Assembly: GCA_016208485.1 (NCBI GenBank)
Contig: JACQXY010000061.1
Location: 14,330 to 78,329 of the forward strand
Source: Acidobacteriota bacterium
GTDB lineage: Bacteria > Actinomycetota > AC-67
DNA length: 64,000 bases
Reading direction: 5' to 3'
The notes under the pieces were generated by a model. It made no database searches. It was not told where the DNA came from and saw only the letters and a list, made by a program, of their open reading frames with translations. The stretch's first letter is position 1, and each line of letters starts with the position of its first letter. Shown here one piece after another: positions 9,065-64,000 of this stretch. The position numbers were made by a program, and so were the translations under genes.

Positions 9065-9099
9065 CTCCTCCTCACCTTGACAGTTCGACGGTCGAGGCG

Positions 9100-9978: not shown

Positions 9979-9985
9979 GCGCCCG

Positions 9986-31165: not shown

Positions 31166-32191
31166 CTATCGCCGTCCCGCGCTCGGCGCGGCTTCGCCGG
31201 CGATCTCGGCGACGAGCATCTCAAGGACCAGCTCCGGCGGCTCGCCCTCCCCGCGCTCCCCGCCCTTGAGCGCGAGATCGGCGTCGGCGAGGAGGCGGAA
31301 CGCGCGGCGGATGTCCTCCGGCCCGAACGCGCGCGCCTGGCGGAACGCGCGCTTCACGGCGCCCTCCTTCACCTCCAGCTCCTTGGCGATCACCGCCGCC
31401 GGGCGCCGCTCGGAGTCGCGCACGAGCGCCACGGTGCGGAGTTGGCGCGCGAGCGCGGCGACCAGGCCGATCGGGTTCTCCCCCTGGCCGAGCAACGCGC
31501 CGAGGTGCCGGAGCGCAGCGGGGCGATCGCGACCGAGGACCGCATCCACGAACGTCCACGCCTGCGACTCGAGCCCCCGGAAGAGCCGCGTGACGGCCGC
31601 GATGTCGATGGCGCCGTCGGTCGAGGAGAGGAGCTGCTCGGCGGCCGACGCCAGCTCGCGAAGGTCGGTCCCGACCGCGTCCACGAGGGCCTGGGCGGCC
31701 TCCGGCGACACTCGACGGCCGGCCGCGCGCAGCCGCGCCGCGACCCAGCGCGGGACCTCCCAGGGCGGAGGAGCCTCGACCTCGATCACATCGGCGACCG
31801 CGCCGAGCGACTTCTTCAGGCGCGCCCCGCGCGCCGCGACGAGCGCGAGCCGTACGCCGGCCGGGGCGTCCGCCGCCCAGCGAGAGATCATCTCGAGCGC
31901 CGGGGCCTTGAGATCGTCCGCATCCGGAACGACGACGAGACGCCCGCCCCCGAAGAGCGAGGGAGTGTCGAGCCCGTAGGCGATCGCGGCGGGGTCGGAG
32001 GCGGGGAGCACCTCGGTCGCGAAGTCGTGCCGCTCGAGCTCCGCCCGCAGGTCCGCGAGAGCGGTCGAGGCGAGGAACTCGTCGCCCGACACGACGAGGG
32101 TCACCGGCGCGGCGCGGCGCGGCGCGGCGCTGCGCGGCGGCGCCCGGTGGCGCGCGGGCGGGTCGGCCGGGGGGCTGGTGCGAGGCATCAC
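31166..32191 (-). CDS. holA: DNA polymerase III subunit delta
   Basis: DNA_pol3_delta family (…LVVVPDADDLK…); N-terminus uncertain (possible GTG start at 32104; the first ~29 aa of the ORF are Pro/Arg-rich). Confidence 0.7.
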   Translation of the reverse strand: MMPRTSPPADPPARHRAPPRSAAPRRAAPVTLVVSGDEFLASTALADLRAELERHDFATEVLPASDPAAIAYGLDTPSLFGGGRLVVVPDADDLKAPALEMISRWAADAPAGVRLALVAARGARLKKSLGAVADVIEVEAPPPWEVPRWVAARLRAAGRRVSPEAAQALVDAVGTDLRELASAAEQLLSSTDGAIDIAAVTRLFRGLESQAWTFVDAVLGRDRPAALRHLGALLGQGENPIGLVAALARQLRTVALVRDSERRPAAVIAKELEVKEGAVKRAFRQARAFGPEDIRRAFRLLADADLALKGGERGEGEPPELVLEMLVAEIAGEAAPSAGRR

Positions 32192-32198
32192 CGAGATC

Positions 32199-34538: not shown

Positions 34539-35255
34539 CTAGACGGTGACGTAGGGCTCGAGCGAGGAGAACTTCTTCTCCCCGATCCCCTCGACCTTCA
34601 GCAGGTCGCGCACGCTCCGGAACGGGCCGTGCTGGGTCCGGTACTCCACGATCCGCTGGGCGAGCACGGGACCGACGCCGGGGAGCCCCTCGAGGTCGCG
34701 CTCGCTCGCGGCGTTGATGTTGAGCTTGCCGCCGCTCGCGGCACCCCCCGACCCACCGCCGTCCGCCGCCGCGCCGTTGGGCGGGACCTCCCCGCGCCGG
34801 GGCACGTAGATCCGCTCCCCGTCGGCGAGCGGGCGCGCGAGGTTGATCGAGTCGACATCGGCGCCGGGCGCCGGACCTCCGGCGCGGCGCACCGCGTCGA
34901 TGACGCGCGCGCCGGGAGCGAACTCGTAGACTCCCGGGCGCCTCACCGCTCCGGCGACGTGCACCACGATGCGCTCCCCGGCCGCGGCGGAGGCCGACGG
35001 CGCCGCGGAAGGCGCCACGGCGGGGACCGCAGCGGCCCCGAGCGCGGCCGGGCGAGCGCGCGCGAAGGCGACGAGCGCCCCCGAGAGGATGAGCCCGCCG
35101 AGGACCGCGAGCGCGACCGTCTCGCGAGGCCGGAACTCGAGCATGCGAGCCGCGCGAACCCACCACGGAACGGCGAGTCCGCTGCGGCCCCGGTCCTGTG
35201 CGCGCTCGCTCAGCATCTGGCCGGGGAAGGATCGATGGACGCGCGACGCTACCAC
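34539..35255 (-). CDS. comEA: competence protein ComEA (helix-hairpin-helix DNA-binding)
   Basis: C-terminus LNINAASERDLEGLPGVGPVLAQRIVEYRTQHGPFRSVRDLLKVEGIGEKKFSSL = tandem HhH; N-terminal TM; exact start uncertain (alternatives 35216, 35144). Confidence 0.7.
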   Translation of the reverse strand: MVASRVHRSFPGQMLSERAQDRGRSGLAVPWWVRAARMLEFRPRETVALAVLGGLILSGALVAFARARPAALGAAAVPAVAPSAAPSASAAAGERIVVHVAGAVRRPGVYEFAPGARVIDAVRRAGGPAPGADVDSINLARPLADGERIYVPRRGEVPPNGAAADGGGSGGAASGGKLNINAASERDLEGLPGVGPVLAQRIVEYRTQHGPFRSVRDLLKVEGIGEKKFSSLEPYVTV

Positions 35256-35324
35256 GCCGGGCGCGCCCGGCCACGTCCGGGAGAAGCGCGCGGAACGGCG
35301 CGAACGCGCCGGACGGACCGGCGC

Positions 35325-36284
35325 TCAGCTCGGCCCGCGCGCGCCCCGGTGCCGGCGCGTCGAGGCGTGGGCCTCGTCTCCGTGCGCCTCCCAGGGATCG
35401 AGGTGAACGTCCACCTGGGCGACGCCGGGCAGCTCGTGCAAGATCCGGTGGTGGACGGTCTCCGCCACCTCGTGCGCTCGCGCGAGCGGCAGGCGCCCGT
35501 CGACCGCCACCGTCAAGGTGACGTAGAGCGAGCGGCCCGCCCAGCGGGCCTGGCAGCGCCCGACCGAGGCGACGCTCGGAGTGCCTCCCGCCACAAGGCG
35601 GATGCGCTCGACGATCTCCGGGTCGACCGCGTCGAGCAGTCGAGCCAGGACCTGGCGGCCGGCGCCCCAGGCGATCGACCCGATCGCGAGCGTGATCACG
35701 AACCCGGCGATCGGGTCGGCGGCGCGAAACCCGAACCGCGCGCCCAGCAAACCGAGGAACGCCGCGACCGAGGCGAGCGCGTCGGTGCGCGCGTGCTGAC
35801 CGTCGGCCACGAGCGGCTCGCTCCCGATGCGGCGCCCGACCCGGATCTTGTACCGCGCGACCACCTCGTTGCCGATCCCTCCCACGAGCGCCGCGGCCAT
35901 CGCCCAGCCGACGAACGCGACCTCGTGCCCTCCGGTGAGCTTGCGGTAGGACTCGAGGGCGGCGTAGCCCGCGCTCGTCCAGATCACGAGCACCACGCCC
36001 ACTCCGGCGAGGTCCTCCAGGCGCTGGTAGCCGAACGTGTAGCGGTGATCCGCGGCCCGGCGCGCGGCCGTGAACGCCACCGCAAGGATCACCGTCGTGA
36101 CGATGTCCCCGATGTTGTCGAGGAGATCTGCAAGCAGGGCGGCGCTCCCGGAGATCGCCACGACGACGGCCTGGAAGACGGCCGTGAGCACGAGCGCAAC
36201 CGCGGAGATCCGGATCGCGCGCAGACCCTCGCGCGTGCCCTCCGGTCCGGCAACGGCAGCGACCCTGTGCGAATCGCCCGACAT
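35325..36284 (-). CDS. cation diffusion facilitator (CDF) family metal efflux transporter
   Basis: Cation_efflux TM domain plus C-terminal ZT_dimer; His-rich tail (HLDPWEAHGDEAH). Confidence 0.8.
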   Translation of the reverse strand: MSGDSHRVAAVAGPEGTREGLRAIRISAVALVLTAVFQAVVVAISGSAALLADLLDNIGDIVTTVILAVAFTAARRAADHRYTFGYQRLEDLAGVGVVLVIWTSAGYAALESYRKLTGGHEVAFVGWAMAAALVGGIGNEVVARYKIRVGRRIGSEPLVADGQHARTDALASVAAFLGLLGARFGFRAADPIAGFVITLAIGSIAWGAGRQVLARLLDAVDPEIVERIRLVAGGTPSVASVGRCQARWAGRSLYVTLTVAVDGRLPLARAHEVAETVHHRILHELPGVAQVDVHLDPWEAHGDEAHASTRRHRGARGPS

Positions 36285-36342
36285 GGTCCCCCCAGGCTAC
36301 GCCGCGCGCGCCCGGTCGCGAGCGCGCGCCGGACCCACCTCG

Positions 36343-38859
36343 CTACCGGACGACGATGTTGACGAGCCGCGGCGGGACGACGACCGTGCGCACGATCTGT
36401 CTCCCACCAAGGTGCGCTCCCACCTTGTCGGAGCCGAGGGCCAACTCCCTCATCCGCTCCTCGGAGACGGCGGCCGGCACCTCGATCCGGTCGCGCACCT
36501 TGCCGTTCACCTGGACCACCATCGTGTGCGTGTCCACGCGCACGAGCGCGGGGTCGACCTGGGGCCACCCGCCCCGGTGGATGCCGGGCTCCCGGCCGAG
36601 GCGGCGCCAGAGAGCCTCGCAGGCGAACGGCGCCATCGGGGCGAGCATGCGCAGGATCGCGTCGAGCGCCTCTCGCACGTCCTCGCCGGACGACCGCGGG
36701 GCGAGGTCGCCGCTCTCGTTCACGAGCGTCATGAGCTTCGCGATCGCGGTGTTGAAACGGAACCGCTCGTAGTCCTCGGTAACTCCGGCGACGGCGCGGT
36801 GGGTCGCCCGCCGCAAGTCGGAGGCGCCGGAGGGCGCGCCGGCCGACCCGGCGCGCGCGGCGTTGTCGAGCGCGAGGCGCCACACCCGCCCGAGCCACTT
36901 GTTCGACCCGGCGATCGAGCAGTCCGCCCAGTCGACGTCGTCCTCGACCGGCCCGGCGAAGAGAAGCGTGATCCGGAGCGCGTCGGCCCCCCAGCGCTCG
37001 ATGGTCGGCATCAGGTCCACGGCGTTGCCGCGCGACTTCGACATCGCCCCCTTCTCGCCGTTCAGGACCATCCCCTGGTTGAGGAGGTTCGGGAACGGCT
37101 CGGCGAAACCGACGAGCCCGAGATCGTGGAGCACCTTGGTGAAGAAGCGCGAGTAGAGCAGGTGAAGGATCGCGTGCTCGATCCCGCCGGTGTACTGGGC
37201 GACCGGCATCCAGCGCCGCACGGCCTCCGGGTCCACGGCCCGCTCCGGGTCGAGCGCGCAGTAGCGGAAGTAGTACCAGGACGAGTCCACGAACGTATCC
37301 ATCGTGTCGGTCTCGCGGCGCGCGGCGGCGCCGCATCGCGGGCAGGCCGCGCTCACCCACTCCTCCACCTTCGCGAGCGGGGACTCGCCGGTCTCGGCCG
37401 GCGTGAGGTCGTCCATCTCGGGGAGAAGCACCGGCAGCTCGCGCTCGGGGACCGGCACCTCGCCGCAATCCCGGCAGTGCACGATCGGGATCGGGCAGCC
37501 CCAGTAGCGCTGGCGCGAGATGAGCCAATCCCTCAGCCGGTAGCTCACCCTGCCCGTTCCGATGCCCTTCTCCTCGAGCCACCGCGTGACGGCGGCCTTG
37601 CCGCGCTCGGCCGGCGTTCCGTCGAACTCGCCCGAGCCGACCATCACCCCCGGGCCGTCGTAGGCCTCCGCCATCGTGTCGCCGTCGAGAGTCCCGTCCC
37701 CGGGGGCGATGACGACCCGGACCGGGATTCCCTCCTGGCGCGCGAACTCGAAGTCTCGCTGGTCGTGCGCCGGCACCGCCATGATCGCCCCGGTCCCGTA
37801 CTCCATGAGCACGTAGTCGGCGACCCAGATCGGGACCGGCTCGCCGTTCACCGGGTTGCGCGCGTGCGCCCCGAGGAACATCCCCTCCCGGCGGCGCCCG
37901 GTCGCGACGCGCTCGATCTCGGTCCGGCGGCGGACGCGCTCGAGGAAGGTCTCGAACTCCGCGCGCAGGCCCGCCCGCTCGGCGAGGCCGGCCGCCATGG
38001 GATGCTCCGGCGCGAGCACGAAGAAGGTCACGCCCCAGAGCGTGTCGGGGCGCGTGGTGAAGATCGGAACCTCCTCGCCCGTCTCGGCGACCGCGAAGGC
38101 GACTTCGGCTCCCTCGCTCCGGCCGATCCAGTTCCGCTGCATCGCGAGCACGCGGTCGCTCCAGCCGCCGAGCAGGGACATGTCCTCGAGGAGCCGGTCG
38201 GCGTAGGCGGTGATCCGGAGGAACCACTGCACCAGGTCGCGCTTGGTCACCACCGCGTCGCAGCGCTCGCAGAGGCCGCCCACCACCTGCTCGTTCGCGA
38301 GCACCGTGCGGCACGACGGGCACCAGTTGACCGCCGCGCCCTTGCGGTATGCGAGCCCACGCTCGAGGAACTTGAGGAATAGCCACTGCGTCCAGCGGTA
38401 GTACTCCGGATCGCAGGTGTTGAACGCGCGCGACCAGTCGAAGGACACGCCGAAGCGCTTGAAGGTCGCCGTCTGGGTCGCGATGTTGGAGTAGGTCCAC
38501 TCGCGCGGGTGGATCCCCCGCTTGATCGCGGCGTTCTCCGCCGGCAGCCCGAACGCGTCGAAGCCGATCGGGTGGAGCACGTCGTGGCCGCGCGCCCAAT
38601 GGAACCGCGCGATGGCATCCCCGATCGCCCACGCCTCGGCGTGGCCGACGTGCAGGTCCCCCGACGGGTACGGGAACATGTCGAGCGCGTACCTCGGGCT
38701 CTTCGGGGCCTCCGGCGCCGCGAAAGCGTTCTGGCGCGCCCACTCCTCGGAGAGAGGCGGCTCGACCGCGCCGGGGTCGTAGCGCTCGCGCTCGCCGGCC
38801 GCGCTCCGGCCCGAGGCCGAAGCGCGCGCGGATGCCTCCGATGCCGTCTCGCCCGTCAT
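36343..38859 (-). CDS. leuS: leucine--tRNA ligase
   Basis: …YALDMFPYPSGDLHVGHAE… HIGH motif, KMSKS (AMSKSRGN), 838 aa. Confidence 0.9.
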   Translation of the reverse strand: MTGETASEASARASASGRSAAGERERYDPGAVEPPLSEEWARQNAFAAPEAPKSPRYALDMFPYPSGDLHVGHAEAWAIGDAIARFHWARGHDVLHPIGFDAFGLPAENAAIKRGIHPREWTYSNIATQTATFKRFGVSFDWSRAFNTCDPEYYRWTQWLFLKFLERGLAYRKGAAVNWCPSCRTVLANEQVVGGLCERCDAVVTKRDLVQWFLRITAYADRLLEDMSLLGGWSDRVLAMQRNWIGRSEGAEVAFAVAETGEEVPIFTTRPDTLWGVTFFVLAPEHPMAAGLAERAGLRAEFETFLERVRRRTEIERVATGRRREGMFLGAHARNPVNGEPVPIWVADYVLMEYGTGAIMAVPAHDQRDFEFARQEGIPVRVVIAPGDGTLDGDTMAEAYDGPGVMVGSGEFDGTPAERGKAAVTRWLEEKGIGTGRVSYRLRDWLISRQRYWGCPIPIVHCRDCGEVPVPERELPVLLPEMDDLTPAETGESPLAKVEEWVSAACPRCGAAARRETDTMDTFVDSSWYYFRYCALDPERAVDPEAVRRWMPVAQYTGGIEHAILHLLYSRFFTKVLHDLGLVGFAEPFPNLLNQGMVLNGEKGAMSKSRGNAVDLMPTIERWGADALRITLLFAGPVEDDVDWADCSIAGSNKWLGRVWRLALDNAARAGSAGAPSGASDLRRATHRAVAGVTEDYERFRFNTAIAKLMTLVNESGDLAPRSSGEDVREALDAILRMLAPMAPFACEALWRRLGREPGIHRGGWPQVDPALVRVDTHTMVVQVNGKVRDRIEVPAAVSEERMRELALGSDKVGAHLGGRQIVRTVVVPPRLVNIVVR

Positions 38860-55596: not shown

Positions 55597-55678
55597 AGTG
55601 TCCGAACCATCGCGTACATTGTTCTCCGGTCTATCTGCCGACTTGGGGTGCTTGATGGACGCTGCGGAGGGAAGCCGG

Positions 55679-58600
55679 ATGCGGTTCAGCCCCGGCCAGA
55701 TCCTCACCGGCCCTCTTTTCAACGAGCCGATGCGGGTCGAGAACGTGCAGGCCGGCGGCCAAGCAAGCTGGGTGGTGGGGCTCGTCGGCCTGCACTCCGA
55801 GCGCTTCCGCAAGGTGACCCTCAGCCCAGACGACGTCGAGCAACTGACGATCCTCGACGCGCGGCACTCATACGCGGGGGATGGACGGCTTCTGCGCCTC
55901 GGCCTCCAGGCATACGCCCTAGGAATCGCCTACGAATTCGACCCCTACTTTGGACTCTCTATCTCGCGCGTAGATCCGCTGCCGCACCAGCTCGAAGCCG
56001 TCTACGACTACCTGCTCAGGCTGGCGCGGGTGCGGTTCCTGCTCGCGGATGACGCCGGGGCCGGGAAGACCATCATGGCAGGGCTGCTGGTCCGAGAGCT
56101 CGAGCTCCGGGGTCTAGCCGAGCGCATCCTGATCGTCTGCCCGGCAAACCTTGCTTTCCAGTGGCAGCGCGAGCTGAAGGAGAAGTTCGATACCACGTTT
56201 CTCGTGATGAAGGGCCAAGACATCCGAGACCAGTTCGGCATGAACCAGTGGCTAGAACGGGACCGCGTCATCACGTCGCTCGACTTGGCGAAGCGCGAGG
56301 ACATCTTGCCGGGACTGCGCCAAGTCCACTGGGACCTTGTCATCGTGGACGAGGCCCATCGAATGTCGGCTGCCGACGAGTCGCACAAGAGCATGCGCTA
56401 CCGGCTCGGCGAGCTGCTGCGCGACGTCTCCGATCACATGCTCCTTCTCACGGCCACTCCGCACAAGGGCGACCCGCAGAACTTCAGTCTGTTTCTCCAG
56501 CTCCTCGACGCGGACGCCTACGCCGACGTGAAGTCGATCCGCGAGGCGATGGACCGCCGGCGGGCGCCCTTCTACTTGCGCCGCACCAAGGAAGCGATGG
56601 TCTACTTCCCCGAGCGGCGGCCGGACGGCTCCTGGGCTGCCGAGAAGATCTTCACCAAGCGAATCCCGCACACGGTGGACTTTCTGATCGACGGTGCGGA
56701 GTTCGATCTCTACCGCGAGGTGACGCGCTTTGTGAAGCGCGAGAGTGCCCGCGCGGCGGCCGAGGGCGAGGATCCCCGCGCTCGGGCGATCGGCTTCCTG
56801 ATGTCCCTCTACCAGCGCCGGCTCGCCTCGAGCACGTACGCGATGAAGCGATCACTCGAGAATCGCGCCCGACGCCTTGAAGACGGGCTCAAGCGCGCGC
56901 AGGACCTTGCCCGCCAAGCGCCGCCGGATATCCCCGATCCGGACGAGCTGGACGAGATGGAGGAAGGTGAGAGGGAGCAACTCGAGGCCATGATCGAGGC
57001 GATCACTCTCGCGGGAAACGCCGACCAAGTGCGCCAGGAGGTCCAGGAGCTGCGGCGGCTCGCCGCGCAGGCCCAAGCCGTGGTGGACGCGGGAGTAGAG
57101 GCCAAGCTTTCGGAGCTGAAGGATCTGCTCCAAGAAGAGGGCTTCTTCGATCATCCTGACCAGCGCTTGCTCCTGTTCACCGAGTTCAAGGACACCCTCG
57201 ACTACCTCGTGGAGCGCCTGGAGTCCTGGGGCTTCCGGGTCGGCTGCATCCACGGGGGCATGAAACCTGGCTCGCGCAACGAGCCCGGCACGCGCTTGTA
57301 CGCCGAGCAGCAGTTCCGTGAGGGCGAGATCCAGATCCTCGTCGCGACCGAGGCCGCGGGCGAGGGGATCAACCTGCAGGTCTGCAACATCCTCTTCAAC
57401 TACGACATCCCGTGGAACCCGAACCGTCTCGAGCAACGGATGGGCCGCATCCACCGTTACGGCCAGCGCAAGGATTGCTTGATCTTCAACTTCGTGGCGA
57501 CGAACACGATCGAAGGCCGCGTCCTCCAGCGGCTGCTCGAGAAACTCCAGGAGATCCGCGACGCGCTCGACGACGATGCGGTTTTCAACGTGGTCGGCGA
57601 GATTCTGCCGGCCGCCCACGTCGAACGCGTGCTGCGCGACTACTACGCCGGACGCCTCGGAGACGCCGACCTCGAGGAGCGCCTGCTCCGCGACGTGGAT
57701 GAGGGGCAATTCCGGGCCATCTGCCAGAACGCCTTAGAGGGACTGGCGAGCAAGAGGCTCAACCTGGAGATGCTGATCGAGCGTCGCGCGCGGGCACAAG
57801 AGCAACGCGTTGTTCCTGAGACCATCGCCCGATTCATGCGTGAAGCATCCGAGTTCGTGCCGCTCAGCCTGAGGATGGTTCCCAGCCTTGCCCACACCTT
57901 CGAGCCTGCCCGAACGCCCTCCGTTCTACGGCGCCACGAGAAGGACCCGGACTGGAAACTCCCGGCTCTCGCCGACCGCTATCCGCGCTGCTCCACCGAC
58001 CGGGAGACGGCAGAGACCCAGAAGCTGGAGTGGGTCACGCCCGGCCATCCACTATTCGAGGCGATCCGGCGCCACACGCACGCACGGGCGCTGGACGCCC
58101 TCGGCCAAGGTGCGACGTTCCATTCGCTCCAGCATGAACGTCCGGCGCGCATCGACTTCTATCGCGCCCGGGCAGTGGACGGACTCGGACAGGTCGTCCA
58201 TGAGCGGCTCTTCGCCGTGGAGATCGACGAGGACTCGGAGCCTCGGCTCCAAGAGCCCAGCTTGCTCGGGAACTTCGCGCCCGCAATCGCGCCGGCCGAG
58301 ATGCCTGCGGTGGCCGCCCTTCCAGAAGCGACGGCCTGGCTCCACGAACAGGCGCTGGCGCCGTTCCTCGACGAGACGCGGCAGGACCGCATGTCCGAGG
58401 TTGAGCGGATCGCCGCGCACGTCGAGCTGTCGCTGACGGAATTGCTCCAGCGTGCCGACGAGGAGATCGGCCGTTCGGCCTCAGACGTCGAGCAGAAGCT
58501 CGCCGGTGCCGAAGGGCGGCTCGCCATGGCGGAAACGCGTCACGCGGAACTGCTCACGCGACGCGATCGACGCCGGACCGATCTTGAGCACCAGCGTTCG

Positions 58601-59101
58601 CTGACCCTCCAAGCGGTTGAGCGGCTCGCGAGCGTCCTCATCTTGCCGCACCCCGAACGCGAGGCGCCCGATGTGCGACGCCTCAGGCCGAACTTCGAAA
58701 CCGAGGCCACCGCCATGCGCGTGGTGATGGAACATGAGCGGGCGCAGGGTCGTCAGGTCTACGACGTCTCCAAGAAGAACCTGGGCTACGACATCACGAG
58801 CCTCGACCTTGCCTCCGGTGAGTTGCGCCTCATCGAGGTCAAGGGCCTCGGCGCGGCGACCGGCACGATCCTGCTGACGCCCAACGAGCGGCGCGTCGCA
58901 GAGGATCGACCCGACTGCTTCTGGCTCTACGTCGTCACCGACTGCGACAATGCTCCGCGACTCCAGGAGCCGATCCGCGATCCGGCGCGGCTCGACTGGA
59001 ACGAAGTGCGAAAGGTGGCGCACTACTACCTCTCGGTGAACGCGATGACGAAACCCATGCAGGTGCGCGAAGAGCCGTTGCCGTACGGGAAGGCCCCCTG
59101 A
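55679..59101 (+). CDS. SNF2-family helicase (DEXDc + HELICc) with long coiled-coil linker and C-terminal DUF3883 restriction-endonuclease-like domain
   Basis: ATG with SD GGAGGGAAG (alternative upstream GTG 55598/ATG 55655); motifs LLADDAGAGKT (I), DLVIVDEAHR (II), LLLTATPHKG (III), …ILVATEAAGEGINLQ…QRMGRIHRYGQ (V/VI); C-terminus …RLIEVKGLGAATGTILLTPNERRVAEDRPDCFWLYVVTDC…. Confidence 0.75.
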   Translation: MRFSPGQILTGPLFNEPMRVENVQAGGQASWVVGLVGLHSERFRKVTLSPDDVEQLTILDARHSYAGDGRLLRLGLQAYALGIAYEFDPYFGLSISRVDPLPHQLEAVYDYLLRLARVRFLLADDAGAGKTIMAGLLVRELELRGLAERILIVCPANLAFQWQRELKEKFDTTFLVMKGQDIRDQFGMNQWLERDRVITSLDLAKREDILPGLRQVHWDLVIVDEAHRMSAADESHKSMRYRLGELLRDVSDHMLLLTATPHKGDPQNFSLFLQLLDADAYADVKSIREAMDRRRAPFYLRRTKEAMVYFPERRPDGSWAAEKIFTKRIPHTVDFLIDGAEFDLYREVTRFVKRESARAAAEGEDPRARAIGFLMSLYQRRLASSTYAMKRSLENRARRLEDGLKRAQDLARQAPPDIPDPDELDEMEEGEREQLEAMIEAITLAGNADQVRQEVQELRRLAAQAQAVVDAGVEAKLSELKDLLQEEGFFDHPDQRLLLFTEFKDTLDYLVERLESWGFRVGCIHGGMKPGSRNEPGTRLYAEQQFREGEIQILVATEAAGEGINLQVCNILFNYDIPWNPNRLEQRMGRIHRYGQRKDCLIFNFVATNTIEGRVLQRLLEKLQEIRDALDDDAVFNVVGEILPAAHVERVLRDYYAGRLGDADLEERLLRDVDEGQFRAICQNALEGLASKRLNLEMLIERRARAQEQRVVPETIARFMREASEFVPLSLRMVPSLAHTFEPARTPSVLRRHEKDPDWKLPALADRYPRCSTDRETAETQKLEWVTPGHPLFEAIRRHTHARALDALGQGATFHSLQHERPARIDFYRARAVDGLGQVVHERLFAVEIDEDSEPRLQEPSLLGNFAPAIAPAEMPAVAALPEATAWLHEQALAPFLDETRQDRMSEVERIAAHVELSLTELLQRADEEIGRSASDVEQKLAGAEGRLAMAETRHAELLTRRDRRRTDLEHQRSLTLQAVERLASVLILPHPEREAPDVRRLRPNFETEATAMRVVMEHERAQGRQVYDVSKKNLGYDITSLDLASGELRLIEVKGLGAATGTILLTPNERRVAEDRPDCFWLYVVTDCDNAPRLQEPIRDPARLDWNEVRKVAHYYLSVNAMTKPMQVREEPLPYGKAP

Positions 59102-59117
59102 TGGCGGAACGGATCCG

Positions 59118-60602
59118 ATGAGCGAGCGCATCTTCGTGAGCAGCGTGCAGAAGGAACTGGAGGCCGAGCGACGGGCCGTGCGGGCCTTCGTTCGCGGGGA
59201 TGCGCTGCTGCGGCGGTTCTTCGATGTCTTTCTCTTCGAAGACCTCGCGGCATCCGATCGGCGGGCGGACGATGTGTACCTCGACGAGGTGGGACGCTGC
59301 GCCGTCTACCTCGGACTTCTCGGCGACGAGTACGGCAGCGAGGACGCGGCGGGGGCATCGCCGACTGAGCGCGAGTTCGACCACGCCACAGCCCTGGGCA
59401 AGACGCGCCTCGTCTTCGTCAGGGGCGTTGACCACGACGGCCGGCATCCGAAGATGCGCGCTCTGGCCGCCAAGGCCGGAGCGCAGCTTATCCGCAGGCG
59501 TTTCAGCGGGATTTCAGACCTCACCGCGGCCCTCTACGCCAGCCTCGTCGAGCATCTGGAGCGGACGGGCAGGCTTAGCACGCGGCCCTTCGACGCTGCG
59601 GCCTGTCCGGACGCCACGTTGGAGGACGTCTCGCCCCAGAAGATGGAATGGTTCATCGGCATCGCCCGCCGCGAGCGGCAGTATCCTCTCCGCGAGGCTA
59701 CACCGCCGGTCGAGGCTCTGGCCCACCTGAACCTGCTCGACGCAGGCCAGCCGACCCGCGCAGCCGTCCTCCTATTCGGGCGGGAGCCGCAACGCTTTCT
59801 CCTCAGCTCCGAGATCAAGTGCCTGCACTTCCACGGCACCGAGGTGCGCAAGCCCATCCCGTCGTACCAGGTGTACAACGGAACCGTGTTCGAGTTGGTG
59901 GACCAGGCGGCGGACTTCGTCATGTCCAAGATCGCCCGGGCCGTCGGCACCCGCGCCCACGGCCCGGAGGCACCTGTCGAGTACGAGCTGCCCCGAGAGG
60001 CCGTGGTCGAGGCCATCGTGAACGCCGTCGCACACCGCGACTACACGAGCAACGCCAGTGCGCAGGTGATGCTCTTCGCGGACCGGCTGGAGGTCTGGAA
60101 CCCCGGAGAACTCCCCCCCACCCTGACGCTGCCGCAGTTGCGCATACCGCATCCCTCCATTCCCCACAACCCGCTCATCAGCGAGCCGCTCTTCCTTGCC
60201 CGGTACATCGAACGAGCCGGCACCGGCACACTGGACATGATCGCCCGGTGCCGGGAAATGGGCTTGCCCGAACCGGAGTTCCGGCAGGACGGTGGACAGT
60301 TCGTCATGACCTTGTGGCGCGACTGGCTCACGGAGGAAGTTCTGGCCTCCCTGGCACTGAATGAACGCCAGGAGAAGGCGGTCGGCTTCATCCGGCGAGA
60401 AGGCCGCCTGACCAACCTCCAGTACCAGGAGATCACGGGCGCGAGCCGGGCCACCGCGAAGCGGGACCTCGAGGAGCTTATGGGCAAGGGTGTGCTAGTC
60501 CGCATGGGCACCGGGCGCGCTGCCCATTATCTGGTTGCGAAGAAACGGCTCAAGAAAGGCTCAAATGGCTCACCGGAGGGTGCGGACGGAAATGGCTCAT
60601 AA
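59118..60602 (+). CDS. fusion protein DUF4062 + Schlafen/AlbA_2 divergent-ATPase + HATPase_c_4 + C-terminal wHTH (RecG-C-terminal-like 'transcriptional regulator' family)
   Basis: N-terminus MSERIFVSSVQKELEAERRAVRAFVRG matches DUF4062 start consensus; middle …AAVLLFGREPQRFLLSSEIKCLHFHG… (AlbA_2); …PLISEPLFLARYIERAGTGTLDMIARCREMGLPEPEF (HATPase_c_4); C-terminal HTH; TAA stop. Confidence 0.6.
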   Translation: MSERIFVSSVQKELEAERRAVRAFVRGDALLRRFFDVFLFEDLAASDRRADDVYLDEVGRCAVYLGLLGDEYGSEDAAGASPTEREFDHATALGKTRLVFVRGVDHDGRHPKMRALAAKAGAQLIRRRFSGISDLTAALYASLVEHLERTGRLSTRPFDAAACPDATLEDVSPQKMEWFIGIARRERQYPLREATPPVEALAHLNLLDAGQPTRAAVLLFGREPQRFLLSSEIKCLHFHGTEVRKPIPSYQVYNGTVFELVDQAADFVMSKIARAVGTRAHGPEAPVEYELPREAVVEAIVNAVAHRDYTSNASAQVMLFADRLEVWNPGELPPTLTLPQLRIPHPSIPHNPLISEPLFLARYIERAGTGTLDMIARCREMGLPEPEFRQDGGQFVMTLWRDWLTEEVLASLALNERQEKAVGFIRREGRLTNLQYQEITGASRATAKRDLEELMGKGVLVRMGTGRAAHYLVAKKRLKKGSNGSPEGADGNGS

Positions 60603-60662: not shown

Positions 60663-60797
60663 ATGATCCCCAAGGAGTGCAAGCGCCTGGCTGAGGTGGA
60701 CTTCCCGATTGCCGAGGCGCCGCGGCATGCGGCGTGGGAGAAGTCGATCCGGCAGGGACATCCGAGCGCACCTGCCTCGAGAACTCAGACCCCATGA
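60663..60797 (+). pseudogene. duplicated 5' fragment (~35 codons) of the DUF1156 methyltransferase gene; short ORF whose stop overlaps the DUF3644 start
   Basis: 60663-60767 is ~89% identical at DNA level to 61867-61971 (protein MIPKECKRLAEVDFPIAEAPRHAAWEKSIRQGHPS vs MIPKECKRLAEVDFPIAEVSRHAAREKSIRHGHPS); homology ends ~nt 105 and the ORF terminates with TGA overlapping ATG 60794. Confidence 0.5.
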
Positions 60798-61870
60798 GAG
60801 GGCTGCCCTACGACGTCAAGGCGCTCGTCGAGAAGGCGAGGGAGACCGCCCTGCTCGCAGTGGAGACCTACAACCGCCCCACGGCGAGCTTCCGGTCAGG
60901 CGCGTACGTAGTCCTGATGATCATCGCTTGGACGTCGCTCTTTCACGCGATGTTCCTTCGCAAGGGAATCAAGCCGTACTGCCGAAAGCCCGGCTCAAGA
61001 CGGTACGAGCGGATCGATGGTGAGCCTCGGCGCTGGGAGCTCGGAGAGTGCCTGCGGCAACACTACAAGGCGAGTAACCCTGCCACCCGGCGGAATCTCG
61101 AGTTCTTCATTGGGCTCCGCAACAAGATCGAGCATCGTTCGCTTGCGCAGATCGACCCAGAAGTCTTCGGCGAATGCCAAGCGATGTTGCTGAACTTCGA
61201 GTCCCTGCTCGTTTCGGAGTTTGGTGATCGGTACGCGATTCGTGGCGGTCTCACGTTCGCCTTGCAGTTCTCACGGGTCGTTCCGACGAGTTCATCGGCG
61301 CCGGCCGCCAATACTGCTGGTAGAGCGTTCAAGGCGATCAAGCAATACGTGGACGCCTTCCGGTCAAGTCTGAGCGCGGACGTGCAGAACGACCTGGCCT
61401 ACAGCTTCAAGGTCTTCCTCGTTCCGAAGATCGGCAATCACGCGAGCAAGGACTCGGTTGCCGTGGAATGGATCAAATACCATCCCTCGAAGCCTGAGGA
61501 GATGAGGCACTACGAGAAGGTAGTGGCGATGATCAAGCCCAAGGAGGTGCAGATCGCGAATCTGGGCCGCCTAAAGCCGACGCAAGTCGCGCGGCAAGTT
61601 GCGGTCAAGCTCGGCAGGCGGTTCACGAATTACGACCACAAGCTTTGCTACGAGCATTTCACGATCCGGCCGCCAGGTGGGGCACCCGATCCGTCGGCAT
61701 GCAACCCTCAGTTCTGTGTCTACGACGATCTCCACAAGGACTACTGCTACACGCCGCAGTGGGTTGACTTCCTTGGGGAGAGACTGGCTGATCCTGCGCT
61801 CTACGCGAACATCATCACGAGAAGGAAGGCCACCGCGAAACCCATTGAAACCAGGAGCGCAACCGCATGA
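60794..61870 (+). CDS. DUF3644-family (HEPN-like, MAE_28990/MAE_18760-type) protein
   Basis: MRGLPYDVKALVEKARETALLAVETYNRPTASFRSGAYVVLMIIAWTSLFHAMFLRKGIKPYCR… matches my recollection of the DUF3644 N-terminal consensus; lower GC (~58%); ATGA overlaps at both ends. Confidence 0.55.
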   Translation: MRGLPYDVKALVEKARETALLAVETYNRPTASFRSGAYVVLMIIAWTSLFHAMFLRKGIKPYCRKPGSRRYERIDGEPRRWELGECLRQHYKASNPATRRNLEFFIGLRNKIEHRSLAQIDPEVFGECQAMLLNFESLLVSEFGDRYAIRGGLTFALQFSRVVPTSSSAPAANTAGRAFKAIKQYVDAFRSSLSADVQNDLAYSFKVFLVPKIGNHASKDSVAVEWIKYHPSKPEEMRHYEKVVAMIKPKEVQIANLGRLKPTQVARQVAVKLGRRFTNYDHKLCYEHFTIRPPGGAPDPSACNPQFCVYDDLHKDYCYTPQWVDFLGERLADPALYANIITRRKATAKPIETRSATA

Positions 61871-64000
61871 TCCCGAAGGAGTGCAAGCGCCTTGCCGAGG
61901 TGGACTTCCCGATCGCCGAGGTGTCGCGGCACGCGGCGCGGGAGAAGTCGATCCGGCACGGGCACCCGAGCACGCTGCACCTGTGGTGGGCCCGGCGGCC
62001 GCTGGCGTCGAGCCGCGCGGTGCTGCTGGGGCTACTCTGGCCGGATCCATGCGATCCGCTGTGCCCGCCAGAGTTCAAGGCGAAGGCTCGAGAGTTGCTG
62101 CCGCGGGTGCAGGGCGGGGGCGCGCCAGGCCCAACTAACAATGATCTACGGCAATCGCTGCTCAAGTTTATCGGTGCGTTTGCGAACTGGGACCTTGCCG
62201 CGAACGGCGTTTACCTGGAGGTCAGCCGCGCCCTGGTGAAGGCGGCGCACGGCGAGGAGCCACCGCTGGTCGTGGATCCGTTCGCGGGGGGCCGATCGAT
62301 CCCGTTGGAGGCTCTGCGGCTTGGCTGCGATGCCTTCGCGAGCGACTTGAACCCCGTCGCCTGCCTGATCCTCAAGGTGATGCTCGAGGACATCCCGCGC
62401 CACGGGCCGAAGCTCGCCGAGGAGCTGCGCCGCGTCGGGACGGAGATCAAACGGCAGGCGGAGAAGGAGTTGGCGGATCTCTACCCCAAGGATCCGGACG
62501 GCGCGACGCCGATCGCCTACCTCTGGGCGCGGACCGTGCGCTGCGAGTCGCCGAACTGCGGCGCGGAGATCCCGCTCGTGCGCTCGTTCTGGCTCTGCAA
62601 GAAGGCGAACCGCCGGCGGGCGCTCAGGCACCGCGTCGTGCGGCCCGCGGGCGAGCCGCCGCGCGTCGAGTTCGAGATAGTCGAGCCGAAGGCTGAGGAG
62701 GAGGTGCCCGGCGGGACGGTGACGCGCGCGAAGGCCACGTGCGTCGCGTGCGGCGCGGTGCTCCCGCCCGAGCGCGTGCGGCCGCAGCTCGCGGCACAGC
62801 GCGGCGGGGCCGACGTCGTCTTCGGCGCCGAGGGCCTACGCACGGCCGGGGCGAGGATGCTGGCCGTTGTGACGCTCCGGCCCGACGAGCAGGGACGGCA
62901 CTATCGGCTGTCAACCGAGCGCGACTACGAGGGCACCCGCAACGCGCAGGAGCGGCTCGCGGCGATCCTCGGCGCGTGGGAGCGTGACGGAAAGATGGGC
63001 CTCCGCCCGGTGCCGGATGAGCCGCTGCCGCCGATCGGCACGCTCGGCTTTCGCGTGCAGCGGTACGGCATGCTCCAGTGGGGCGACCTCTTCACGGCGC
63101 GGCAGAAGACTGCGCTGGTCACGTTGTCGGTGCGGATGGCCCGAGAGAACGGAGACGTCATTGAGGCAATGGCGTCTTCTCTTTCGAGACTTGCGGACAA
63201 GAACGCATCACTCGCAGTCTGGAATCAGATCGGCGAGAAGATTGAGCACGTCTTCGGGCGTCAGGCACTCCCAATCGTCTGGGACTTCGCAGAGGTGCCC
63301 ATATTTTCGAACTCTACCGGTAATTTCGGCAGCGGTGTCGATCTCGTCCGAAAAGTGTTAGAGGCTTGGCCTGGCTCACTTGCAGGGCAAGTTCAACTCG
63401 CTGACGCTACCGAGCACCCACTCCCCGACCAGACCGCAACCGTCTGGTTCACCGACCCGCCCTATTACGATGCGGTCCCGTACGCCGACCTCTCGGACTT
63501 CTTCTTCGTCTGGCTGAAGCGCGCGCTACCGGGACGAGCAGTCTTGCGCGATCCGTTCGATCCGGCCAACCCGCTTTCCCCCAAACGGCGCGAAGCCGTG
63601 CAGGACGAGACGAAACGAGACAACGGTCGGTCGAAGGACCGAGCGTGGTTCGAGGAGACGATGGCCCGTGCCTTCGCCGAAGGCCGACGGGTACTGCGAG
63701 AGGACGGCGTGGGCTCCGTGGTTTTTGCCCACAAGACGACGGAAGGCTGGGAAGCGCTCCTCTCCGGGATGATTCGGGGCGGCTGGACGATCACCGGCTC
63801 GTGGCCCATCGCCACGGAGCGCCCCGGGCGACTGCGCGCACAGGAGTCTGCCGCCCTCGCCACCAGCGTCCACCTCATCTGCCGCCCCCGCCCTGTGGAT
63901 GCAGGCGTCGGTGACTGGGCCGACGTTCTGCGCGAGCTGCCGAACCGCGTCGGCGACTGGATGGAGCGCCTGCAGGGCGAAGGTATTCGCGGCGCCGACC
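61867..64000 (+). CDS. DUF1156-domain N6-adenine DNA methyltransferase with Zn-ribbon (COG1743 family), 3' end beyond window
   Basis: Open frame from ATG 61867 to the window end; N-terminal DUF1156 (…HGHPSTLHLWWARRP…VDPFAGGRSIPLEALRLGCDAFASDLNP = SAM-binding motif I), CxxC…CxxC Zn-ribbon (CESPNCG…CVACG), catalytic motif IV DPPY (VWFTDPPYYD). Confidence 0.75.
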   Translation, partial: MIPKECKRLAEVDFPIAEVSRHAAREKSIRHGHPSTLHLWWARRPLASSRAVLLGLLWPDPCDPLCPPEFKAKARELLPRVQGGGAPGPTNNDLRQSLLKFIGAFANWDLAANGVYLEVSRALVKAAHGEEPPLVVDPFAGGRSIPLEALRLGCDAFASDLNPVACLILKVMLEDIPRHGPKLAEELRRVGTEIKRQAEKELADLYPKDPDGATPIAYLWARTVRCESPNCGAEIPLVRSFWLCKKANRRRALRHRVVRPAGEPPRVEFEIVEPKAEEEVPGGTVTRAKATCVACGAVLPPERVRPQLAAQRGGADVVFGAEGLRTAGARMLAVVTLRPDEQGRHYRLSTERDYEGTRNAQERLAAILGAWERDGKMGLRPVPDEPLPPIGTLGFRVQRYGMLQWGDLFTARQKTALVTLSVRMARENGDVIEAMASSLSRLADKNASLAVWNQIGEKIEHVFGRQALPIVWDFAEVPIFSNSTGNFGSGVDLVRKVLEAWPGSLAGQVQLADATEHPLPDQTATVWFTDPPYYDAVPYADLSDFFFVWLKRALPGRAVLRDPFDPANPLSPKRREAVQDETKRDNGRSKDRAWFEETMARAFAEGRRVLREDGVGSVVFAHKTTEGWEALLSGMIRGGWTITGSWPIATERPGRLRAQESAALATSVHLICRPRPVDAGVGDWADVLRELPNRVGDWMERLQGEGIRGAD

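What the first reader, a model, noticed from the sequence alone, without database searches (positions are those of the whole stretch)
63100..63420. Sharp low-GC patch inside the methyltransferase ORF
About 300 nt within the DUF1156 MTase gene (…gagaacggagacgtcattgaggcaatggcgtcttctctttcgagacttgcggacaagaacgcatcactcgcagtctggaatcag…ccatattttcgaactctaccggtaatttcggc…) drops to roughly 50% GC, flanked by >70% GC on both sides. The patch lies just upstream of the DPPY catalytic motif. Codon usage also shifts (tct, ttt, att, aat, gta). This suggests a mosaic gene built by recombination with a lower-GC homologue, plausibly a swapped target-recognition segment.
Basis: seen in the sequence. Interest (0 to 1): 0.55.

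Follow-up and report, generated by a model that had tools for sequence, protein, structure and literature searches.

The report
Swappable variable cassette in defence methyltransferase
The low-GC stretch is real and coincides with a ~100-codon hypervariable module, exchanged by recombination, inside an otherwise highly conserved anti-phage (Hma / BREX-related) DNA methyltransferase; 78 of 80 relatives show the same dip, so it is a family trait and not a one-off import from a low-GC donor.

Summary
The patch exists. Bases 63100-63420 are 56.7% GC, not ~50%, and include the lowest-GC 300-nt window of the whole 64 kb. Third-codon-position GC (GC3) falls from ~0.93 to 0.61.

The gene is hmaB, the DUF1156 adenine methyltransferase of an Hma / type-1 BREX-related defence locus.

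In a codon alignment of 80 homologues from more than 15 phyla, codons 421-520 (63127-63426) stand out in four ways:
- They are hypervariable: mean pairwise amino-acid identity is 37%, against 76-79% in the flanks.
- Their length is essentially invariant.
- They have lower GC3 in 78 of 80 genes (mean difference -0.19).
- Their similarity is uncorrelated with that of the rest of HmaB, HmaA or HmaC.

Alleles fall into discrete classes. Selection is purifying within a class, and synonymous sites are saturated between classes. Some gene pairs are similar only across the patch, which indicates cassette exchange through the conserved flanks.

This copy is itself a mosaic, with a breakpoint at 63124-63131: the 5' part is about equally distant from the Rokubacteria and Dormibacteraeota copies, slightly nearer the former, and the 3' part is 96% identical to the Dormibacteraeota copy.

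The most likely function is a target-specificity module. That is inferred, not shown. Verdict: a new member of a known kind, of moderate interest.

The parts
61867..64000 (+). hmaB: DUF1156 N6-adenine DNA methyltransferase of an Hma / type-1 BREX-related system. The first 711 of 1000 codons are in the window; the gene runs off the window end.
   Evidence: Pfam DUF1156 E = 1.4e-21. PADLOC HmaB E = 8.8e-107. 100% identical to P0001, a 1000-aa protein named as from an 'Acidobacteria bacterium' MAG.
63127..63426 (+). Hypervariable, essentially length-invariant, low-GC3 cassette (codons 421-520).
   Evidence: Column plurality is 0.12-0.5 here against 0.8-0.98 in the flanks, gap fraction is 0-0.01, and family mean GC3 is 0.54-0.62 against 0.75-0.85. 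78/80 homologues have lower GC3 here. Alleles form discrete classes. AF2 pLDDT is mostly 86-96; elements are H411-425, H430-445, a hairpin at 451-460, E473-476 and H487-500.
63052..63126 (+). Conserved 5' arm (codons 396-420, ...GFRVQRYGMLQWGDLFTARQKxAL). It abuts the recombination breakpoint of this copy, mapped between 63124 and 63131 (arm/cassette junction).
   Evidence: Family mean nt identity is 0.70-0.76 here against 0.32 in the next window. Exact shared runs of 25-50 nt exist with other family members. The maximum-chi-square breakpoint lies between 63124 and 63131 (chi2 = 131; maximum over 300 permutations 15.8).
63262..63297 (+). Conserved anchor motif inside the cassette (F463-E476 region, FGRQALPIVWDFAE).
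   Evidence: R465 and E476 are invariant in 111 proteins, and F463, Q466, A467, L468, P469, W472 and D473 are nearly invariant there; see also the alignment. GC3 is low even at the conserved columns of the patch (0.62 against 0.78 outside).
63385..63408 (+). Motif-III-like strand GQVQLADA (codons 507-514), at the 3' end of the cassette.
   Evidence: G507, Q508, D513 and A514 are nearly invariant. The motif-III assignment is an inference from the order of motifs in Rossmann-fold N6-methyltransferases.
63442..63522 (+). Conserved 3' arm with catalytic motif IV (DPPY at 63454-63465).
   Evidence: Column plurality is 0.87-0.99. Family mean nt identity is 0.76-0.79. DPPY is located.
62542..62751 (+). 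Four-cysteine Zn-ribbon (C226, C231, C292, C295) of the large insert. This part is conserved and GC-rich, and it lies outside the variable cassette.
   Evidence: All four cysteines are invariant or nearly so. GC is 75-81% and GC3 0.93-1.0. pLDDT is above 90. The feature is described for this family in PMC12839542.
62269..62292 (+). SAM-binding motif I (VVDPFAGG).
   Evidence: D137, P138, F139 and G141 are invariant.
61906..62055 (+). DUF1156 N-terminal domain.
   Evidence: Pfam match to residues 14-63.
55598..59101 (+). hmaA: SNF2 helicase with a C-terminal NOV_C nuclease.
   Evidence: Pfam SNF2-rel_dom, Helicase_C and NOV_C. PADLOC HmaA E = 8.5e-174.
59118..60602 (+). Accessory gene inserted between hmaA and hmaB (DUF4062 + HATPase_c_4 + HTH).
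   Evidence: Pfam.
60663..60767 (+). Relic copy of the first ~35 codons of hmaB, immediately 5' of the cargo gene.
   Evidence: ~90% identical to hmaB 5' ends. It translates as MIPKECKRLAEVDFPIAEAPRHAAWEKSIRQGHPS.
60734..61870 (+). Cargo gene PDC-S19 / DUF3644, 57-60% GC, bracketed by the relic and the intact hmaB 5' end.
   Evidence: Pfam DUF3644 E = 1.6e-51. PADLOC PDC-S19 E = 2.6e-131. It lies in the second-lowest-GC stretch of the window.

Best explanation
The low-GC patch (codons 421-520, bases 63127-63426) is the exchangeable hypervariable module of HmaB, the adenine methyltransferase of an Hma / type-1 BREX-related anti-phage system.

**Shown**
- The module is essentially constant in length and confidently predicted as ordered in the structure model.
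- It exists as many deeply diverged allele classes. Each class is under purifying selection.
- Its similarity pattern is independent of the rest of HmaB, HmaA and HmaC.
- It is moved between backbones by recombination, most plausibly homologous recombination through the conserved arms on either side (the route itself is inferred).
- This window's copy is a recombinant whose breakpoint lies on the 5' arm/cassette junction.

**Inferred**
- The module sets the DNA motif that HmaB methylates, and hence what the system treats as self. Swapping it would re-target the system, as target-recognition-domain (TRD) exchange does in Type I HsdS, Type III Mod and BREX PglX.
- The depressed GC3 is a block-wide signature of the cassette's separate history. 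It is either AT-biased mutation that is not offset by whatever keeps the recombining backbone GC-rich, or spread faster than compositional adjustment to the host. It is not a mark of a low-GC donor.
For: - **Identity of the gene and locus:**. The nearest relative's locus has hmaA ... hmaB ... DUF499 hmaC.
- **Hypervariability and invariant length:**. Mean pairwise amino-acid identity is 0.375 in the patch against 0.76 and 0.79 in the flanks, and patch identity is uncorrelated with upstream identity (r = 0.06). Pairs with 90-91% upstream identity have 23-35% patch identity.
- **Number of alleles:** 44 classes at 60% identity among 80 genomes. Identity to this allele is bimodal among 110 proteins (22 at 0.7-0.92, 88 below 0.6, none between).
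- **Selection:** omega is 0.1-0.2 within classes, the same as in the flanks. Between classes dN is 0.6-1.1 and dS is saturated.
- **Patch-only similarity islands:**
  - WIN/L085: patch nt identity 0.89 (dS 0.42) against flanks 0.77/0.82 (dS 0.63/0.72).
  - L086/L087: patch 0.95 (dS 0.16) against 0.79/0.83 (dS 0.77/0.81).
  - L031/L058: patch dS 0.26 against 0.98/1.34.
- **Breakpoint in this copy:** 63124-63131, chi2 = 131 against a permutation maximum of 15.8. To the left, 53/127 informative sites favour L081; to the right, 247/263 do. The signal persists when the patch is excluded (110/122).
- **Arms:** conserved, with 25-50-nt exact matches to other family members.
- **Independence from partners:** Mantel r is -0.11 to 0.02 against HmaC and -0.03 to 0.11 against HmaA. 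Other HmaB segments give 0.15-0.48 against HmaC and weaker, partly non-significant values (0.06-0.27) against HmaA.
- **Structure:** ordered in the AF2 model, pLDDT mostly 86-96.
- **Position:** it is the last ~100 residues of the insert between core strands 2 and 3. PMC12839542 calls that insert the nested TRD of this family.
- **The GC3 dip is family-wide, regional and not driven by amino-acid content:**
- **Same segment in a second subfamily:** a ~50%-identical cyanobacterial-type subfamily is also more variable here (plurality 0.57 against 0.81).
Against: - Nothing here shows that the segment touches DNA or sets a motif. No relative has a solved structure. The fold search returned only generic Rossmann methyltransferases. 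The model coordinates could not be inspected.
- The methylation motif of any HmaB is unknown. In the one experimental study, HmaA alone defended against T4, and T4 grown on HmaB-expressing cells behaved no differently (PMC11232893). Even the restriction-modification-like role of HmaB is therefore unproven.
- The published description places the Zn-finger at the apex of the TRD, yet that part is conserved here.
- The cassette contains a nearly invariant motif (FGRQALPxxWDFxE), so part of it may be a structural element of the catalytic domain.
- The cause of the low GC3 is not established.
- The window-specific breakpoint comes from a metagenome-assembled contig, and its read support could not be checked.
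Confidence: 0.6

Rival explanations
1. Arms-race or interaction surface rather than a DNA-specificity module. The variable helices and loops would be a surface bound by phage anti-defence proteins (as the DNA mimic Ocr binds BREX PglX) or by another host factor, and they would diversify to escape it. Target sequence would be the same in all alleles.
For: - The variable positions flank conserved anchor residues, as expected of exposed surfaces on a fixed scaffold.
- The module is self-contained and independent of HmaA and HmaC.
- The Zn-ribbon, which PMC12839542 proposes may help refine TRD-binding specificity, is conserved.
- No methylation motif is known for any HmaB.
Against: - Within a class the patch is under purifying selection as strong as in the flanks (omega 0.1-0.2). 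Classes are discrete, and dS between them is saturated.
- That pattern suits long-lived specificity types more than continuous escape evolution.
- No inhibitor of Hma is known.
Confidence: 0.2
2. One reading: a single recent gene conversion from a homologue living in a lower-GC genome left a ~300-nt low-GC tract in this gene only.
For: - The dip is sharp at its 5' edge, where a real recombination breakpoint sits.
- The host's other genes have GC3 of about 0.87.
Against: - 78/80 homologues have the dip at the same codons, whatever the GC content of their own backbone (mean -0.19). This gene ranks 20th of 80.
- All sampled carriers of this patch class sit on high-GC3 backbones (0.79-0.93) and still have patch GC3 of 0.60-0.77.
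- The tract most recently shared with the nearest relative extends well beyond the patch.
Confidence: 0.05
3. The family-wide GC3 dip is selected at the nucleotide or translation level. It would be a conserved cluster of rare codons that slows the ribosome before the catalytic half so the large insert can fold, or it would be an embedded regulatory element.
For: - The dip is positionally conserved in 78/80 genes.
- It affects even the conserved columns of the patch (GC3 0.62 against 0.78).
- It is not explained by amino-acid content.
Against: - In low-GC hosts, where A/T-ending codons are the common ones, a rare-codon cluster should invert to G/C-ending codons. It does not: L028 has 0.34 against 0.42-0.56, L040 has 0.39 against 0.49-0.70, and Planktothrix has 0.23 against 0.26-0.32.
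- The deficit simply shrinks with host GC.
- No Rfam family and no repeat was found.
- A sequence element is hard to reconcile with ~45% nt identity between alleles.
Confidence: 0.05
4. The mosaic seen in this particular copy is an assembly chimera. The metagenome assembler would have joined two co-occurring hmaB variants inside the conserved arm.
For: - The source is a MAG contig.
- hmaB is very conserved across taxa found in the same kinds of sample.
- The breakpoint lies just after a conserved stretch with 32-50-nt exact matches to other alleles.
Against: - The same decoupling of patch and flanks is seen across 80 genomes, including chromosome-level assemblies.
- Exact matches near the junction are at most 50 nt with any sampled relative.
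- This rival does not bear on the family-wide GC dip at all.
Confidence: 0.1
5. Programmed local diversification: a diversity-generating retroelement target, or a shufflon/inverton with silent cassettes.
For: There is a hypervariable segment in a defence gene.
Against: - No second copy of the patch or its arms was found in the window or in 83 related loci.
- No inverted repeats flank it.
- No reverse transcriptase or invertase appears in the gene lists of related loci.
- Variation spans ~300 nt at ~45% nt identity, which is unlike adenine-directed mutagenesis.
Confidence: 0.02
6. A relaxed-constraint linker that drifts freely towards AT.
For: It has the lowest conservation and the lowest GC3 in the gene.
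Against: - Virtually no indels in 80 homologues.
- omega is 0.1-0.2 within classes.
- pLDDT is about 90 with defined helices and strands.
- There are invariant residues inside it.
Confidence: 0.03

Closest known systems
HmaB / 'BR-MTase' of the Hma (helicase-methylase-ATPase) or type-1 DUF499-centred BREX-related system (Payne et al. 2021 via PADLOC; PMC11232893; PMC12839542)
   Same: - DUF1156 N-terminal domain, split Rossmann N6-methyltransferase with DPPY, a large insert with a 4-Cys Zn-ribbon, and an SNF2-NOV_C helicase-nuclease neighbour.
[quoted passage not shown]
   Different: - The papers found in the held library treat the whole ~250-residue insert as the TRD and do not report a discrete hypervariable sub-module.
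- Here the Zn-ribbon part is highly conserved (column plurality ~0.8-0.96). Only the last ~100 residues before motif III vary, and they recombine and carry a GC3 dip.
Target-recognition-domain exchange in Type I HsdS, Type III Mod and Type IIG enzymes ('domain movement'); own knowledge, with examples in the literature listed
   Same: Conserved arms flank deeply diverged, discrete, same-length specificity modules. These are reshuffled by homologous recombination and kept under purifying selection within a type.
   Different: - Here the module is nested inside the catalytic Rossmann fold of a single-chain methyltransferase.
- There are no local silent cassettes or invertons.
- Exchange is seen across phyla, including Archaea.
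- The link to DNA specificity is untested.
BREX PglX (type 1) and BrxXI/PglXI (type 3) methyltransferases
   Same: - A single methyltransferase acts as the presumed specificity factor of a multi-protein, restriction-modification-like defence.
- Type-3 BrxXI shares the nested insert-TRD architecture.
- There is a weak PADLOC PglXI match (E = 6.5e-4).
   Different: - Not a BREX member: no PglZ or BrxC was seen in the window or in the related loci listed.
- The N-terminus is DUF1156.
- PglX carries its TRD C-terminally.
Beta-class N4/N6 methyltransferases (PF01555; CcrM 6PBD, TTHA0409 2ZIG)
   Same: They are among the structural matches to the catalytic core. The HPxx..WxxRP-like motif X precedes motif I, and DPPY is motif IV.
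   Different: - Motif order is permuted relative to the beta class (X-I ... insert ... IV-VIII).
- TM-scores are very low (0.09-0.14 on the query).
- There is no counterpart of the cassette.

Membership tests
Hma / type-1 BREX-related (DUF499-centred) system, HmaB methyltransferase | DUF1156 N-terminal domain and a match to the HmaB profile | tested here: met
   Pfam PF06634 E = 1.4e-21. PADLOC HmaB E = 8.8e-107.
Hma / type-1 BREX-related (DUF499-centred) system, HmaB methyltransferase | N6-adenine methyltransferase motifs (motif I DPFAGG, motif IV DPPY) and a 4-Cys Zn-ribbon insert | tested here: met
   The motifs are read directly in the translation. They are invariant across 111 proteins, including C226, C231, C292 and C295.
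Hma / type-1 BREX-related (DUF499-centred) system, HmaB methyltransferase | Neighbouring SNF2 helicase with a NOV_C nuclease (HmaA) | tested here: met
   ORF 55598-59101: PADLOC HmaA E = 8.5e-174, and Pfam SNF2-rel_dom, Helicase_C and NOV_C.
Hma / type-1 BREX-related (DUF499-centred) system, HmaB methyltransferase | DUF499 ATPase (HmaC) downstream | not testable with these tools
   The window ends inside hmaB, and the source contig is not in the look-up collection. The closest relative L081 and 69 other loci do carry DUF499/HmaC downstream.
Exchangeable target-recognition module (TRD) of a restriction-modification-like methyltransferase | Hypervariable between homologues whose flanks are conserved, with preserved length and fold | tested here: met
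Exchangeable target-recognition module (TRD) of a restriction-modification-like methyltransferase | Discrete allele classes, with purifying selection within a class | tested here: met
Exchangeable target-recognition module (TRD) of a restriction-modification-like methyltransferase | History incongruent with the flanks (recombinational exchange) | tested here: met
Exchangeable target-recognition module (TRD) of a restriction-modification-like methyltransferase | Contacts DNA and determines the methylated motif | not testable with these tools
   There is no solved relative, no DNA-bound model and no methylome data. The literature has no motif for HmaB.
Exchangeable target-recognition module (TRD) of a restriction-modification-like methyltransferase | Located where the family's TRD is placed | tested here: inconclusive
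   It lies inside the strand-2/strand-3 insert that PMC12839542 calls the TRD. However, it is only the C-terminal third of that insert, and it excludes the Zn-ribbon apex.
Diversity-generating retroelement target | A template repeat and a reverse transcriptase nearby | tested here: not met
   No second copy in the window or in 83 loci. No reverse transcriptase in the gene lists.
Shufflon / inverton specificity switching | Silent cassettes, flanking inverted repeats and a recombinase | tested here: not met
Recent horizontal import from a lower-GC donor (compositional island) | The compositional anomaly is peculiar to this genome and absent from homologues in other high-GC genomes | tested here: not met
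   78/80 homologues share it.

The most novel reading that the evidence does not exclude
The cassette belongs to a pan-phylum pool of specificity modules that travels and evolves separately from its host gene. Alleles older than the backbones that carry them are passed between Bacteria and Archaea through ~75-nt conserved arms.

On this reading, the block-wide GC3 deficit seen in 78/80 hosts is a general compositional footprint of a segment that is excluded from the homologous exchange (and any GC-biased conversion or selection) that keeps the rest of the gene GC-rich. If so, a GC3 dip inside a conserved defence gene could be used to find specificity modules directly from sequence, and HmaB could be re-targeted by swapping 100 codons.
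Probability: 0.25. Interest if true: 0.6.

Novelty: new member of a known kind. Interest (0 to 1): 0.42.

Why it matters
How Hma / BREX-related systems tell self from non-self is unknown, and no target motif has been measured for HmaB. This analysis points to one ~100-residue segment as the only part of HmaB that differs strongly between otherwise 75-90% identical systems and that assorts independently of the other components.

That gives a concrete experiment: methylomes of allele classes, and cassette swaps between them. It also gives a possible handle for re-programming the system.

The work also shows that a local GC dip in a defence gene can be a family-wide mark of a variable module and need not indicate recent foreign origin. 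This is a useful caution for scans based on composition alone.

Tried and rejected
Searching 106 residues against the 5.8-billion-protein set returned only 25 short fragments and did not recover the source protein, so it was uninformative. The question was answered from the codon alignment of 80+ loci instead.
- **Source contig.** Look-ups of the source contig (via P0001) and of P0003's contig found nothing on record, so the rest of hmaB and hmaC could not be read as DNA.
- **First AF2 run.** An alignment of 75-90%-identical sequences gave a poor model (pLDDT 53). Adding a ~50%-identical cyanobacterial-type subfamily raised it to 81. The motif I region stayed unreliable, and the coordinates could not be inspected.
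- **Structure comparisons.**
  - The PDB sequence search found nothing.
  - Foldseek against the PDB gave only generic Rossmann methyltransferases.
- **Partner co-variation.** I tested whether patch classes co-vary with the hypervariable C-terminus of HmaC or with any HmaA segment, which would indicate a partner interface or shared specificity. They do not. Power is limited: only 9 same-class pairs had a complete HmaC.
- **Local diversification machinery.**
  - Silent cassettes or template repeats: none.
  - Flanking inverted repeats: none.
  - Rfam families: none.
- **A false lead.** An apparent second low-GC3 stretch in ORF 7550-9907(-) is a frame artefact. That long ORF overlaps the hydrolase gene at 9103-10152.
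- **Literature.** No paper in the held library reports an HmaB motif or a hypervariable HmaB segment.
Full report
**1. The observation**

The ORF starts at ATG 61867 and runs off the window end. Bases 63100-63420 are 56.7% GC, and the lowest 100-nt window inside is 51%. The lowest-GC 300-nt window of the entire 64 kb starts at 63103 (55.7%). The window mean is 69.7% with SD 4.1%.

In frame, GC3 is 0.9-1.0 over codons 160-410 and 0.47-0.73 over codons ~415-510. Over codons 421-520, 61/100 codons end in G or C, against 528/606 elsewhere in the gene (Fisher p = 3e-9). The other genes of the window have a median GC3 of 0.86, and their 100-codon windows average 0.876 (SD 0.078).

Amino-acid content does not explain the drop: the expected GC3 is 0.88 and the observed value is 0.61. 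DPPY starts at 63454.

The observation therefore stands, with two corrections. The GC is 55-57%, not ~50%. The downstream flank is only 66% GC for 300 nt before it returns to 71%.

**2. The gene and its surroundings**

- The protein has the DUF1156 domain and matches the PADLOC HmaB profile (E = 8.8e-107).
- Upstream lie HmaA (SNF2 helicase plus NOV_C nuclease, 55598-59101), a DUF4062/HATPase_c_4 gene (59118-60602) and a PDC-S19/DUF3644 gene (60734-61870).
- This is the Hma system. It has recently been renamed the type-1 DUF499-centred BREX-related system (PMC11232893, PMC12839542).
- The window's protein is identical to P0001, a 1000-residue protein labelled as from an Acidobacteria MAG.
- Relatives are 75-90% identical across more than 15 phyla, including Halobacteria and Bathyarchaeia.

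**3. What the patch is**

I built a codon alignment of 80 species-representative genome loci plus the closest metagenomic relatives.

| Measure | Codons 421-520 | Rest of gene |
|---|---|---|
| Column plurality | 0.12-0.5 | 0.8-0.98 |
| Alignment gaps | essentially none | n/a |
| Mean GC3 of all homologues | 0.54-0.62 | 0.75-0.85 |

- 78 of 80 genes have lower GC3 in the patch. The mean difference is -0.19 (Wilcoxon p = 1e-14), and this gene's -0.26 ranks 20th of 80.
- The deficit belongs to the block, not to individual columns. Conserved columns inside the patch have GC3 0.62, against 0.78 for conserved columns outside. Variable columns outside still have 0.73.
- The 5' edge is sharp. GC3 goes from 0.86 to 0.58, and conservation from 0.93 to 0.28, between codons 414 and 426.
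- The deficit grows with backbone GC3, from -0.11 below 0.65 to about -0.20 above 0.75. It does not change sign in low-GC hosts.

**4. The patch is exchanged as a cassette**

- Mean pairwise identity is 0.375 in the patch against 0.76 and 0.79 in the flanks. Patch identity is uncorrelated with upstream identity (r = 0.06).
- Pairs with 90-91% upstream identity have 23-35% patch identity (L037/L065, L029/L067, L010/L046).
- The reverse also occurs, with the patch as an island of similarity:

| Pair | Patch nt identity (dS) | Flank nt identity (dS) |
|---|---|---|
| WIN/L085 | 0.89 (0.42) | 0.77 / 0.82 (0.63 / 0.72) |
| L086/L087 | 0.95 (0.16) | 0.79 / 0.83 (0.77 / 0.81) |
| L031/L058 | n/a (0.26) | n/a (0.98 / 1.34) |

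- Alleles are discrete. There are 44 clusters at 60% identity among 80 genomes. Identity to this allele is bimodal among the 110 best protein hits.
- Within a class, omega is 0.1-0.2, the same as in the flanks. Between classes dN is 0.6-1.1 and dS is saturated.
- The arms on either side are local maxima of nucleotide conservation and share 25-50-nt exact runs with other alleles.
- No silent copies, template repeats or flanking inverted repeats exist. This argues against a DGR or a shufflon.

**5. This copy is itself a mosaic**

I compared it with L081 (Dormibacteraeota, 90% amino-acid identity) and L002 (Rokubacteria). The maximum-chi-square breakpoint falls between 63124 and 63131 (chi2 = 131; the maximum over 300 permutations is 15.8).

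- To the left, 53/127 informative sites favour L081.
- To the right, 247/263 favour L081.
- With the patch removed, the right side still gives 110/122.

Nucleotide identity to L081 is about 87% before codon 421 and 93-100% after it. At protein level the high identity continues to the C-terminus. So a breakpoint does sit on the 5' edge of the patch, but the recently shared tract is the patch plus the whole 3' part. An assembly chimera cannot be excluded for this one contig. The family-wide pattern does not depend on that contig.

**6. What the cassette most likely does**

The literature places a ~250-residue TRD insert with a 4-Cys Zn-finger between core strands 2 and 3 of this methyltransferase family (PMC12839542). 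Here the Zn-ribbon (C226, C231, C292, C295) and most of the insert are highly conserved and GC-rich. Only the last ~100 residues before motif III/IV vary.

The improved AF2 model (pLDDT 81, with the patch mostly 86-96) shows the following elements, in order, directly before the DPPY strand:
- two helices (411-425 and 430-445);
- a hairpin (451-460);
- a strand in the invariant WDFAE motif (473-476);
- a helix (487-500).

Patch classes do not co-vary with any segment of HmaC (r = -0.11 to 0.02). This includes HmaC's hypervariable C-terminus. They do not co-vary with HmaA either (r = -0.03 to 0.11). Other HmaB segments co-vary with HmaC (r = 0.15-0.48) and more weakly, partly non-significantly, with HmaA (r = 0.06-0.27).

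A self-contained, ordered, essentially length-invariant module, with many ancient classes under purifying selection and exchange through conserved arms, is the pattern of a specificity (TRD) module. The same pattern is seen in Type I HsdS, Type III Mod and BREX PglX (own knowledge; examples). I therefore infer that it sets the motif HmaB methylates.

This is inference. No solved relative exists. The fold search gave only generic Rossmann methyltransferases. No HmaB motif has been measured, and the single experimental paper saw no effect of HmaB on T4. The main rival is a surface that diversifies against phage inhibitors.

**7. Why the GC is low**

The "lower-GC donor" explanation fails, because the dip is shared by homologues in all host classes. 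All sampled carriers of this allele class sit on high-GC3 backbones.

A selected rare-codon cluster is unlikely, because the sign does not reverse in low-GC hosts.

What remains is a block-wide compositional regime tied to the cassette's separate history. Either AT-biased mutation is not countered by whatever keeps the frequently exchanged backbone GC-rich, or the cassette spreads faster than it adjusts to the host's composition. This was not resolved here.

**8. Novelty and verdict**

Exchange of TRD cassettes is well known. The held literature does not describe it for HmaB/DUF1156 enzymes, nor the restriction of variability to the final third of the nested insert, nor the family-wide GC3 dip.

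I file it as a new member of a known kind, of moderate interest.

Noticed in passing
window 60663-60767 (and L002:453-531, L021:3895-3959, L029:5560-5605, L033:3655-3733, L035:4884-4921, L067:3835-3892, L068:5916-6034): There is a relic direct copy of the first ~35 codons of hmaB (~90% identical) immediately 5' of the PDC-S19 cargo gene, so the cargo is bracketed by two hmaB 5' ends. 8 of 83 sources carry such a relic 0.4-2.4 kb upstream of hmaB. In three of them the intervening gene is an OLD-family AAA_15(+TOPRIM) ATPase. This suggests that defence cargo is inserted between hmaA and hmaB by recombination at the hmaB 5' end.
   Followed up: partly
window 60881-61929: This is the second-lowest-GC stretch of the window (57-60% GC). 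It corresponds to the PDC-S19/DUF3644 cargo gene (GC3 0.76).
   Followed up: no
window 62047-62226 (hmaB codons 61-120): This is a second, smaller variable segment of HmaB, with indels (plurality 0.40-0.7, 12% gaps). In this copy GC3 dips to 0.53-0.67 and no sampled relative exceeds 68% nt identity over codons 76-100. Unlike the main patch, the family as a whole shows no GC3 dip here.
   Followed up: partly
whole hmaB family (L001-L087): The backbone is 75-90% identical in amino acids and 70-89% in nucleotides across more than 15 bacterial phyla and two archaeal lineages. Pairwise identities of different gene segments correlate only weakly (r <= 0.42). The whole gene therefore looks like a recombining, horizontally spreading pool, not only the patch.
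   Followed up: partly
L081:14892-17654 and 45 other loci (HmaC): The HmaC (DUF499) C-terminus, about residues 800-860 and 881-920, is hypervariable (plurality 0.44-0.62 against ~0.85 elsewhere). This agrees with the hypervariable RRM domain described in PMC12839542. It does not co-vary with the HmaB patch.
   Followed up: partly
window 62557-62583 and 62749-62775: A 27-nt imperfect direct repeat (85%) encodes the two CG-A-[EV]-[IL]-P knuckles of the Zn-ribbon. This hints at an internal duplication.
   Followed up: no
window 59118-60602; L083:1807-3096; L085:1221-2915; L086:1235-3004: A gene with an HATPase_c_4 domain sits directly upstream of hmaB in several otherwise different loci. Its N-terminus is SLFN_AlbA_2 in the relatives and DUF4062 in this window. 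It may be a recurrent accessory of the system.
   Followed up: no
proteins P0186 and P0217: Cyanobacterial-type relatives of ~1340 residues carry a DprA domain (PF02481) fused to the DUF1156 methyltransferase.
   Followed up: no
window 31000-37000: This block is unusually GC-rich (73-79% GC), with a strong AT skew (0.40 at 33-34 kb). It was not examined.
   Followed up: no
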